Part shown: positions 44,818 through 46,240 of the stretch, piece by piece | Layout of the letters: every line of letters starts with the position of its first letter | Numbering within the stretch: position 1 is the first letter of the stretch | Origin: a virus | UHGV virus genome: UHGV-0171999 | Length of the DNA stretch: 64,000 nucleotides | Strand: one strand, 5' to 3' | The notes under the pieces: generated by a model | Seen by the model: only the letters and a program-made list of their open reading frames with translations | Told to the model about the DNA's origin: nothing | The model's database searches: none | Translations under genes and position numbers: made by a program

Positions 44818-45138
44818 ATGAAAACTTTATTAGAACGTTATATTGAATGCTCAGACCGTTACATTGATGTGTGCCATGGTGCGGTATACATGGATTTGGA
44901 TCGTGGAATAGTATTAAATGATGAAGACCCTGCGAAAGCTTTAGATGATGCTGGCAAAGCTCTACGAAAAGAAGCAAAAGCTCGTGGTCTTGATATGTAT
45001 CAGCTTAAAAATCACATGATAAAATTTATTTCATCAAATGTTCAGAGTAAATCAGCGAATAAATCAACCGCTGAATTGTATAAAGGACGGCGTGAGCATA
45101 ATATTCGTATTCTTGAAGTTTTCTTAGGAATTAAATGA
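44818..45138 (+). CDS. hypothetical protein, 106 aa
   Basis: ORF abutting pseT. Confidence 0.45.
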
Positions 45139-45995
45139 TGAAAAAGATTATTTTGACTATTGGCTGTCCTGGTTCCGGTAAGAGTACTTGGGCTCGTGAA
45201 TTTATTGCTAAAAATCCTGGGTTTTATAACATTAATCGTGATGACTATCGCCAATCTATTATGGCGCATGAAGAACGCGATGAGTATAAGTATACCAAAA
45301 AGAAAGAAGGCATCGTATCTGGCATGCAGTTCGACACAGCTAAAAGTATTCTGTGCGGTGGTGATTCTGTTAAGGGCGTAATCATTTCAGATACTAACCT
45401 GAATCCCGAACGGCGCCTGGCATGGGAAACTTTTGCCAAAGAATATGGCTGGAAAATTGAATATAAAGTGTTTGATGTTCCTTGGACTGAATTGGTTAAA
45501 CGTAACTCAAAACGTGGAACTAAAGCAGTACCAATTGATGTTTTACGCTCAATGTATAAAAGTATGCGAGAGTATCTCGGTCTTCCGGTATATAAAGGGA
45601 CTCCTGGTAAACCAAAAGCAGTTATTTTTGATGTTGACGGTACGTTAGCAAAAATGAATGGTCGTGGTCCTTATGACCTTGAAAAATGTGATACTGATGT
45701 TGTCAATCCTATGGTTATTGAACTAGCTAAGATGTACGATAAGCAAGGATATTACATCGTAGTCGTTTCAGGCCGTGAAAGTGGAACCGAAGAAGACCCG
45801 ACGAAATATTATCGTATGACCCGTAAATGGGTTGAGGATATTGCTGGCGTTCCATTAGTTATGCAATGTCAACGCGAACAAGGTGATACCCGCAAAGATG
45901 ATGTAGTTAAAGAAGAAATTTTCTGGAAACACATCGCACCGCATTTTGATGTGAAATTAGCTATTGATGACCGTAACCAAGTCGTTGAGATGTAG
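45138..45995 (+). CDS. pseT: polynucleotide 5'-kinase/3'-phosphatase, reading frame stopped by TAG at codon 286 of a 301-codon frame
   Basis: Walker [10 protein letters not shown] (kinase), HAD motif DVDGTLA (phosphatase); in-frame TAG at 45993-45995, frame stays open 15 more codons to TAA at 46041-46043. Confidence 0.85.
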
Positions 45996-46042
45996 CGTCG
46001 TATTGGTGTTGAATGTTGGCAAGTTGCTTCGGGAGACTTTTA

Positions 46043-46240
46043 ATGGCGTGGCATCATGAAACTTGGTCTATTGTTATTGTAAATAGTGGTTTAGTTGGTA
46101 CTAGTAATGGGCAATTTTGTGTATTCACTAGTGAAATCAGAGCTTGGGAGGAATGCCTTAAATTAAGAGAAAAGAATCCTGATATTGAACTAACAGTAAA
46201 GAAAACTAAACTACCTTTACCATGGAAAACTTATGAATAA
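46043..46240 (+). CDS. hypothetical protein, 65 aa
   Basis: ATG at 46043 overlapping the extended pseT frame stop (TAATG). Confidence 0.45.
   Translation: MAWHHETWSIVIVNSGLVGTSNGQFCVFTSEIRAWEECLKLREKNPDIELTVKKTKLPLPWKTYE

What the first reader, a model, noticed from the sequence alone, without database searches (positions are those of the whole stretch)
45138..46043. In-frame amber codon inside pseT (polynucleotide kinase/phosphatase) at a T4-length position
The frame opening at ATG 45138 has the kinase Walker A (GCPGSGKST) and the HAD phosphatase motif (DVDGTLA). It hits TAG at 45993-45995, then stays open 15 more codons (RRIGVECWQVASGDF) to TAA at 46041-46043, which overlaps the next gene start as TAATG. 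The full frame is 301 codons, the length I recall for T4 Pnk, so this looks like a single TGG-to-TAG change, not a natural C-terminus. The translated product would lack the last 16 residues of the phosphatase domain unless the host carries an amber suppressor. Pnk together with RNA ligase 1 (42261-43385) is the repair arm that counters the PrrC anticodon nuclease activated by Stp (15504-15584), so a defective pseT would change growth on prr-positive hosts. The alternatives are a laboratory amber mutant, a recent natural pseudogenisation, or a sequencing error.
Basis: partly seen in the sequence, partly recalled or inferred. Interest (0 to 1): 0.65.

Follow-up and report, generated by a model that had tools for sequence, protein, structure and literature searches.

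The report
Natural amber stop in phage pseT
A T4-like phage assembled from a metagenome carries a single G-to-A change that turns an invariant tryptophan codon of its RNA-repair enzyme (polynucleotide kinase/phosphatase) into a stop, cutting off the last 16 residues; this is a real but ordinary, recent loss-of-function allele of a gene known to be dispensable on most hosts.

Summary
The frame from ATG 45138 is a 301-codon pseT that aligns end to end with T4 Pnkp. TAG at 45993-45995 replaces T4's TGG (Trp286). Fifteen sense codons identical to the T4 C-terminus follow, then TAA overlapping the next gene's ATG. Trp286 is invariant in every homologue examined, and no homologue ends here. The window is not a laboratory strain. 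It is 100% identical to a 167-kb ENA metagenome scaffold and to an independent Logan assembly of run SRR7658682, both carrying the TAG. pseT is the only real gene in the 64 kb with an in-frame stop. TAG is used as a normal terminator, and the window holds no tRNA gene. pseT dN/dS is 0.066 and both changes after the TAG are synonymous, so the lesion is young. It removes the last helix turn and the terminal beta-strand of the phosphatase domain, with six invariant residues. The 3'-phosphatase is probably lost and the kinase domain probably retained. Stp and Rnl1 are intact, so the phage should be restricted on prr+ hosts. This is a new natural allele of a well-known gene, of low interest. The read-level allele frequency and the phage's tRNA cluster could not be examined.

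The parts
45138..45992 (+). Translated part of pseT (285 codons; 286 if the ATG at 45135 is used). It has a complete 5'-kinase domain with P-loop GCPGSGKST and a 3'-phosphatase (HAD/DxDxT) domain truncated after Met285.
   Evidence: translation and ORF. (1LTQ alignment 1-301). (Pfam AAA_33 at 5-148; HAD_PNKP at 159-285 covering only profile positions 1-127 of 143).
45993..45995 (+). In-frame amber codon TAG replacing the invariant Trp286 codon TGG. The change is G to A at 45994, which corresponds to scaffold_6 position about 70639 on the opposite strand.
   Evidence: T4 has TGG. (TGG in 48 of 48 loci, of which 15 were selected without reference to this codon). (W invariant). against 9, 52, 53 (TAG context 0 hits; TGG context 32, 15 and 3 hits).
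45996..46040 (+). Orphaned 15-codon tail RRIGVECWQVASGDF, identical in amino-acid sequence to the T4 Pnkp C-terminus. It has no in-frame restart codon.
   Evidence: (only two differences from the nearest relatives, both synonymous). (corresponds to the end of helix 280-288 and the final beta-strand 293-295 in T4 numbering).
46041..46043 (+). Ancestral pseT stop codon TAA, overlapping the ATG (46043) of the downstream cd.5 homologue as TAATG.
   Evidence: sequence. (synteny with T4 pseT and cd.5).
46043..46240 (+). cd.5 homologue (65 aa, Pfam T4_Y13H). It has its own GGGAG Shine-Dalgarno sequence, so the early stop 48 nt upstream need not silence it.
   Evidence: gene call and Pfam. (sequence context). 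(T4 annotation).
42261..43385 (+). rnlA (RNA ligase 1), intact at 374 aa. It differs from T4 by 5 conservative residues and keeps the Lys99 KEDG motif.
15504..15584 (+). stp, a 26-aa peptide 100% identical to T4 Stp, the activator of the host PrrC anticodon nuclease.

Best explanation
This is a genuine, evolutionarily recent G-to-A nonsense mutation (Trp286 to amber) in the pseT gene of an uncultivated Tequatrovirus assembled from a metagenome.

Shown:
- The ancestral codon was TGG.
- The allele is the one assembled by two pipelines.
- It is the only interrupted real gene in 64 kb.
- TAG is otherwise a normal terminator in this phage.
- Until recently the gene was under strong purifying selection.

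Inferred:
- Ribosomes terminate at UAG and release a 285-residue protein with an intact 5'-kinase domain.
- That protein lacks the last turn of the helix after HAD motif IV, the terminal beta-strand of the phosphatase fold, and six invariant residues.
- The 3'-phosphatase / 2',3'-cyclic-phosphodiesterase activity, and possibly the tetramer, is therefore lost or crippled.
- tRNA-Lys cut by PrrC could then not be healed for Rnl1 to seal. Because Stp is intact, the phage would be restricted on prr+ hosts.
- The allele persists because pseT is dispensable on hosts that lack prr.
For: Codon and context:
- TAG in frame, with the T4 C-terminus encoded after it.
- Unbiased loci have TGG in 15 of 15 cases, down to 34% identity.
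- W286 and R287, G290, C293, G299 and F301 are invariant in 56 homologues.
- Of the 120 best clusters, none ends at 285/286. The short ones are a mis-called start, an N-terminal lesion or a chimera.
- The TAG context gives 0 hits against 50 for TGG in three public collections.
- Every listed GenBank phage gains exactly one match when TAG is replaced by TGG.

Provenance:
- The window is 100% identical to ENA scaffold PASO19-1_SAMN09781698_METAG-scaffold_6 (167,058 bp) and to a Logan contig of SRR7658682.

Isolated lesion, no recoding:
- pseT is the only real gene with an internal stop relative to KAW1E185.
- Terminators are TAA 37, TGA 21 and TAG 4.
- The window has no tRNA gene.

Recency:
- dN/dS is 0.066, with 7 replacement differences against about 97 expected under neutrality.
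- Both differences after the TAG are synonymous.

Structural consequence:
- The AlphaFold model of the closest intact homologue (pLDDT 91) places helix 280-288 and the last strand 293-295 across or after the cut.
- The Pfam HAD_PNKP match stops at profile position 127 of 143.
- The kinase domain alone (1-181, PDB 1LY1) and the phosphatase domain alone (158-301, PDB 5UJ0) have each been solved, so the domains appear to fold independently.

Biology:
- Pnk- or Rnl1-defective T4 grows normally on laboratory strains but is restricted on prr+ hospital strains.
- A phosphatase-only mutant (pseT1) exists and is viable (PMC3014915).
- The phosphatase chemistry uses Asp165, Asp167 and Asp278, and the enzyme is a homotetramer (PMC3592404).
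- Stp and Rnl1 are intact.
Against: - No reads could be inspected. The two assemblies probably come from the same sequencing run, so a systematic read error or a mixed TGG/TAG population with TAG merely in the majority cannot be excluded.
- Loss of phosphatase activity is inferred from conservation and a predicted fold. It is not measured, and all catalytic residues named in the literature (up to Asp278) are still present.
- I found no held paper describing a C-terminal deletion of T4 Pnkp.
- Only 64 of 167 kb were visible. The phage's tRNA cluster, where a suppressor could sit, was not examined.
- pseT is present in 544 phage records against 549 with the stp/ndd region. That argues the gene is useful in nature, so a null allele should be at some disadvantage.
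Confidence: 0.75

Rival explanations
1. Sequencing or assembly artefact, or a minority variant promoted to the consensus. On this view the phage population really has TGG.
For: The sequence comes from a metagenome assembly, not a clonal isolate. Both assemblies that show TAG probably derive from the same run. No reads were available.
Against: Two different assembly pipelines give identical sequence over 11.5 and 20.9 kb, including the TAG. The exact 286-aa product is on three ENA contigs. The window has no ambiguous bases and no other broken real gene in 64 kb, so the assembly is not error-prone. A substitution error reaching the consensus is improbable for short-read data.
Confidence: 0.07
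2. The 16-residue truncation is benign. Pnkp(1-285) keeps both activities and the allele is effectively neutral.
For: All catalytic residues identified in the literature (Asp165, Asp167, Ser211, Lys258, Asp278) lie upstream of the stop. The lost strand is the last one of the domain in the model.
Against: The deleted segment has 6 of 16 positions invariant and 3 more at 90% or above in homologues down to 48% identity. VVEMWRRIGVECWQV is unchanged even at 55% overall identity. The Pfam domain model runs to the very last residue. No natural homologue lacks the segment.
Confidence: 0.1
3. The amber is suppressed or read through, so full-length Pnkp is still made. The suppressor could be a tRNA encoded by the phage outside the window, a host suppressor, or leaky termination at UAG-C.
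For: The tail after the TAG shows no amino-acid change. The base after the stop is C, which I recall as a weak termination context in E. coli; this comes from memory and was not tested. T4-type phages carry a tRNA cluster, which lies outside this window.
Against: TAG terminates 4 of the 62 genes scored in the window, including gene 39, so TAG is a working stop. The window has no tRNA gene. Only one gene has an in-frame TAG. The unchanged tail is equally expected from a young mutation: with about 4% divergence, roughly two changes are expected in 45 nt, and two synonymous ones were seen.
Confidence: 0.04
4. Laboratory amber mutant, or contamination by a laboratory phage stock.
For: Amber mutants are the classical tool of T-even genetics. 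T4 pseT DNA does contaminate unrelated assemblies.
Against: The gene is only 92.6% identical to T4, and the genome is at most about 96-97% identical to any GenBank phage. The source is a metagenome scaffold. No second amber marker is present. The contaminant contigs are 100% T4 and carry TGG.
Confidence: 0.02

Closest known systems
T4 polynucleotide kinase/phosphatase (pseT product; PDB 1LTQ, 301 aa)
   Same: Same gene at the same syntenic position (alc, pseT.3, pseT.2, pseT.1, pseT, cd.5). It has a 301-codon frame, 14 amino-acid differences from T4, a P-loop kinase domain plus a DxDxT phosphatase domain, and a TAATG overlap with the next gene.
   Different: Codon 286 is TAG instead of TGG, so the translated product ends at Met285. 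An extra 106-aa ORF (44818-45138) lies immediately upstream and is absent from T4.
T4 pseT laboratory mutants (pseT1 phosphatase-only mutant, pseT deletions)
   Same: Expected phenotype: loss of the 3'-phosphatase healing step, normal growth on ordinary E. coli, and restriction on prr+ strains when Stp is intact (PMC3014915). Stp here is identical to T4's.
   Different: This allele arose in an uncultivated phage in a metagenome. Its effect on enzyme activity has not been measured.
Another natural pseT nonsense allele: ENA ERZ1304577 NODE_8987 (locus L075)
   Same: An otherwise intact pseT, 89% identical, with a single in-frame stop.
   Different: The stop is an ochre (TAT to TAA) at codon 30 in the kinase domain, on a contig with only 4x coverage. 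The C-terminus there is intact.
Stop-codon-recoded phages (TAG read as an amino acid with a phage suppressor tRNA)
   Same: An in-frame TAG inside a conserved gene.
   Different: Only one gene is affected. TAG is used as a terminator elsewhere in the window, and no tRNA is present in the window.

Membership tests
T4-type Pnkp (bifunctional 5'-kinase / 3'-phosphatase) | N-terminal P-loop kinase domain with GxxGxGKS | tested here: met
   GCPGSGKST at residues 9-17. Pfam AAA_33 at 5-148, E 2e-22.
T4-type Pnkp (bifunctional 5'-kinase / 3'-phosphatase) | DxDxT acylphosphatase motif (Asp165, Asp167) and the metal-binding Asp278 of motif IV | tested here: met
   DVDGT at 165-169 and LAIDDR at 274-279 are present upstream of the stop. 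Their roles are taken from PMC3592404.
T4-type Pnkp (bifunctional 5'-kinase / 3'-phosphatase) | End-to-end homology of the reading frame with T4 Pnkp | tested here: met
   phmmer 1-301 against 1-301 of 1LTQ, E 1.5e-199.
T4-type Pnkp (bifunctional 5'-kinase / 3'-phosphatase) | Complete phosphatase (HAD_PNKP) domain in the translated product | tested here: not met
   The product covers profile positions 1-127 of 143, while the intact homologue P0016 covers 1-143. The last helix turn and the terminal strand are missing.
T4-type Pnkp (bifunctional 5'-kinase / 3'-phosphatase) | 5'-kinase and 3'-phosphatase activity; homotetramer | not testable with these tools
   Needs recombinant protein assays and gel filtration.
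Laboratory amber mutant of a T-even phage | Derives from a cultured laboratory stock, typically T4, T2 or T6, often with further markers | tested here: not met
   Metagenome scaffold and Logan contig. 92.6% identity to T4 pseT. No other in-frame stop in real genes.
TAG-recoded phage genome | In-frame TAG in many genes, with TAG avoided as a terminator | tested here: not met
   One gene has an in-frame TAG. TAG ends 4 of the 62 genes scored.
TAG-recoded phage genome | Phage-encoded suppressor tRNA (CUA anticodon) | tested here: inconclusive
   No tRNA in the 64-kb window. The remaining 103 kb of the scaffold, including the expected tRNA cluster, could not be fetched.
Decayed pseudogene | Several lesions and relaxed selection (dN/dS near 1) | tested here: not met
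   A single lesion. dN/dS is 0.066, with 7 replacement differences against about 97 expected if neutral. The tail is unchanged at the protein level.

The most novel reading that the evidence does not exclude
The amber is not a defect but is tolerated or used. One version is that the phage carries an amber-suppressor tRNA in its tRNA cluster, which lies outside the window and was not seen. Another is that leaky UAG-C termination keeps a low level of full-length enzyme. A third is that a kinase-only Pnkp is favoured in this phage's natural host, for example by keeping the RegB/RNase E-G mRNA-decay role of the 5'-kinase while dropping tRNA healing. Any of these would make it a natural separation-of-function or recoding variant of a classic anti-defence enzyme.
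Probability: 0.04. Interest if true: 0.6.

Novelty: new member of a known kind. Interest (0 to 1): 0.18.

Why it matters
The finding matters modestly, in three ways.

- **Natural variation in an anti-defence gene.** A wild T4-like phage can carry a null or hypomorphic allele of its tRNA-repair enzyme while keeping the PrrC trigger Stp and the ligase Rnl1. That fits relaxed selection where prr+ hosts are absent. It also offers a natural genotype for testing how much pseT matters outside the laboratory.

- **Annotation.** Gene callers report the 286-aa product as a complete protein with both Pfam domains. Catalogues of phage anti-defence genes built from metagenome assemblies will therefore count this gene as intact.

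- **No new mechanism.** Nothing here calls for a new mechanism or addresses an open question in the field.

Tried and rejected
- **TAG recoding or a suppressor within the window.** Rejected. ARAGORN found no tRNA, TAG is used as a terminator, and only one gene has an in-frame TAG.

- **A second broken gene as a sign of poor assembly.** An apparent frame split at window 49385 relative to KAW1E185_00219 is a 1-nt indel upstream of the real 58-aa gene 30.9. The KAW annotation is over-extended. The other stop-containing HSPs were wrong-frame or wrong-strand ORFs, or lay upstream of true starts.

- **Naturally short homologues.**
  - P0070 (phage FL18) is intact with a GTG start.
  - P0132 is a chimeric 2-kb contig.
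  - P0036 has an ochre at codon 30.
  - None ends at codon 285.

- **Finding out whether the three ENA contigs come from different samples.** The look-up collapses them even with flank 0, so this is unresolved.

- **Papers on the sample.** A search for SAMN09781698 and SRR7658682 found nothing. My guess that PASO19 refers to the Pasolli et al. 2019 human-gut cohort rests on memory only.

- **Papers on C-terminal deletions.** PMC2761019, PMC100346 and PMC373337 are not held.

- **Reaching the scaffold's tRNA cluster.** It lies about 40 kb beyond the window end. That is outside the 10-kb flank limit, and proteins outside the window cannot be looked up, so I did not attempt it.

- **Rfam scan of the window.** No hits.

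Full report
**1. The observation**

The sequence is exactly as described.
- An ORF opens at ATG 45138, with a second ATG one codon upstream at 45135.
- It encodes the kinase P-loop GCPGSGKST and the phosphatase motif DVDGTLA.
- It reaches TAG at 45993-45995.
- The same frame then runs 15 more sense codons (RRIGVECWQVASGDF) to TAA at 46041-46043, which overlaps the next ATG as TAATG.

With the stop masked, the 301-residue frame aligns 1-301 to 1-301 with T4 polynucleotide kinase/phosphatase (PDB 1LTQ, E 1.5e-199). Trp286 lies opposite the stop, and the 15 following residues are identical to T4. At DNA level T4 reads GAA ATG TGG CGT CGT where the window reads GAG ATG TAG CGT CGT. A single G-to-A change at 45994 explains it. 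The window has no ambiguous bases, and the tail has no in-frame restart codon.

**2. Is TGG the rule, and does any homologue end here?**

- Fifteen loci from IMG/VR were recovered through peptide patterns elsewhere in the protein, so they are unbiased for this codon. All have TGG, including two that are only 34% identical.
- The peptide VVEMWRRIGVECWQV is unchanged even in homologues with 55% overall identity.
- In an alignment of 56 cluster representatives down to about 48% identity, Trp286 is invariant. So are Arg287, Gly290, Cys293, Gly299 and Phe301, and three more tail positions are conserved at 90% or above.
- Nearly all of the 120 best homologue clusters are 295-303 aa with 100% coverage.
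- The few short ones are explained otherwise:
  - a mis-called start (phage FL18, really intact with a GTG start);
  - a chimeric 2-kb contig;
  - an ochre at codon 30 on a 4x-coverage contig.
- A degenerate DNA pattern for E-M-TAG-R-R-I-G-V-E-C-W found nothing in the viral, metagenome or genome collections. The same pattern with TGG found 32, 15 and 3 stretches.
- Against GenBank phages, every listed record gains exactly one matching base when the 62-nt query carries TGG instead of TAG.

**3. Where the sequence comes from**

The window is a Tequatrovirus. No GenBank phage is closer than about 96-97%, and its pseT is 92.6% identical to T4's.

An exact-protein look-up places the 286-aa product on ENA scaffold PASO19-1_SAMN09781698_METAG-scaffold_6 (167,058 bp). 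The 285-aa version is on a Logan contig of run SRR7658682. Both loci are 100% identical to the window, including the TAG. The product is recorded on three ENA contigs, but I could not find out whether these are different samples.

This is therefore an uncultivated phage from a metagenome, not a laboratory amber stock, and the TAG is not the product of a single assembler. The two assemblies probably share the same reads, so read-level confirmation is still missing.

**4. Is it an isolated lesion?**

I translated all ORFs of the closest relative (KAW1E185) over the whole equivalent span and compared them with the window.
- pseT is the only real gene with an internal stop.
- One apparent frame split, near window 49385, is a 1-nt indel upstream of the true start of gene 30.9.
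- Terminators of the genes scored are TAA 37, TGA 21 and TAG 4, and TAG ends gene 39.
- The window has no tRNA gene and no Rfam hit.

This argues against TAG recoding, against a multi-amber strain, and against a generally error-prone assembly.

**5. Age of the mutation**

Against the nearest relative (KMB22), pseT shows 26 synonymous and 7 conservative replacement differences plus the amber. dN/dS is 0.066, and about 97 replacements would be expected under neutrality. Both differences downstream of the TAG are synonymous.

The gene evolved under strong purifying selection for almost all of its divergence, so the nonsense mutation is young. pseT is found in 544 GenBank phage records, against 549 with the stp/ndd region. 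The gene is thus kept almost universally in this genus.

**6. What the truncation does (inferred)**

T4 Pnkp is a homotetramer with a kinase domain (residues 1-147) and a DxDxT phosphatase domain (148-301). The phosphatase uses Asp165, Asp167, Ser211, Lys258 and Asp278 (PMC3592404). All of these lie upstream of the stop.

An AlphaFold model of the closest intact homologue (mean pLDDT 91) gives, in T4 numbering:
- strand 271-277, ending in motif IV;
- helix 280-288;
- a last strand at 293-295.

The amber removes the last helix turn, that strand and the tail. The Pfam HAD_PNKP match of the product stops at profile position 127 of 143, while an intact homologue covers all 143.

The kinase domain alone (1-181, PDB 1LY1) and the phosphatase domain alone (158-301, PDB 5UJ0) have each been solved, so the kinase half probably still folds. 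My best estimate is a kinase-proficient, phosphatase-defective or unstable protein. This step is not shown.

**7. Consequence for the phage (inferred from established T4 biology)**

- Stp is 100% identical to T4 Stp.
- Rnl1 is intact, with five conservative differences and the Lys99 motif.
- A phosphatase-only mutant (pseT1) is known, and Pnk also helps mRNA decay after RegB cleavage (PMC3014915).

This phage should therefore still trigger PrrC but be unable to heal the 2',3'-cyclic phosphate end. It should grow on prr- hosts, which explains how the allele can persist.

The downstream gene cd.5 has its own GGGAG ribosome-binding site, so a strong polar effect is not expected.

**8. Rivals**

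| Rival | My estimate |
|---|---|
| Read or consensus artefact | about 0.07 |
| Benign truncation | about 0.10 |
| Suppression or read-through | about 0.04 |
| Laboratory mutant or contaminant | about 0.02 |

Each is set out with its refuting test in the Rival explanations section. The phage's tRNA cluster lies about 40 kb beyond the window, so a phage-encoded suppressor remains formally open.

**9. Verdict**

It is a new natural allele of a very well-known gene, with a predictable phenotype. Interest is low (0.18).

Noticed in passing
L069, L070, L071 (NZ_MSIF01000054.1, NZ_SMZO01000103.1, NZ_QBUK01000018.1): Three unrelated bacterial genome assemblies (Actinophytocola, Meridianimarinicoccus, Flagellimonas) each contain a 6.3-6.6 kb contig that matches T4 pseT at 100% over exactly the 903-nt ORF. 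One contig is a rotated copy. This looks like a small circular plasmid carrying cloned T4 PNK, probably a reagent contaminant from enzyme preparations.
   Followed up: partly
L075:415-1317 (ENA ERZ1304577 NODE_8987, coverage 4): Another metagenomic pseT, 89% identical, has an in-frame ochre (TAT to TAA) at codon 30 in the kinase domain. Gene callers split it into a 30-aa and a 259-aa product. It is either a second natural nonsense allele or a low-coverage error.
   Followed up: partly
window 44818-45138 (+): A 106-aa ORF sits between pseT.1 and pseT, and its stop overlaps the pseT start. T4 has no gene there, since pseT.1 abuts pseT, but KAW1E185 and KMB22 do. In KMB22 it is mislabelled 'pseT: AAA ATPase protein'. 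No Pfam hit is on record for it.
   Followed up: no
window 36275-37135 (td) and 40592-41770 (nrdB): Thymidylate synthase and NrdB are each a single uninterrupted ORF, and an Rfam scan found no group I intron. In T4 both genes are split by introns carrying I-TevI and I-TevIII. A 213-aa NUMOD3-like homing-endonuclease ORF lies between nrdA and nrdB (window 39954-40595), where T4 has mobE.
   Followed up: partly
window about 49336, upstream of the 30.9 homologue (49429-49605): There is a one-base insertion relative to KAW1E185 (TTCGCAGGC against TTCGC-GGC), just upstream of the ATG of the 58-aa gene 30.9. It breaks KAW1E185's annotated 102-aa ORF, which is probably an over-extended call, because T4 30.9 is 58 aa.
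   Followed up: yes
L073:1378-2277 (Escherichia phage FL18, PP400780.1): FL18 pseT is annotated as 258 aa starting at an internal Met. The full 301-codon frame is intact and starts with GTG, so the deposited annotation drops the kinase P-loop.
   Followed up: yes
L074 (ENA ERZ27280545 k141_1168361, 2094 bp): The contig joins pseT codons 1-147 to unrelated bacterial-looking coding sequence. It is most likely an assembly chimera and not a real gene fusion.
   Followed up: partly
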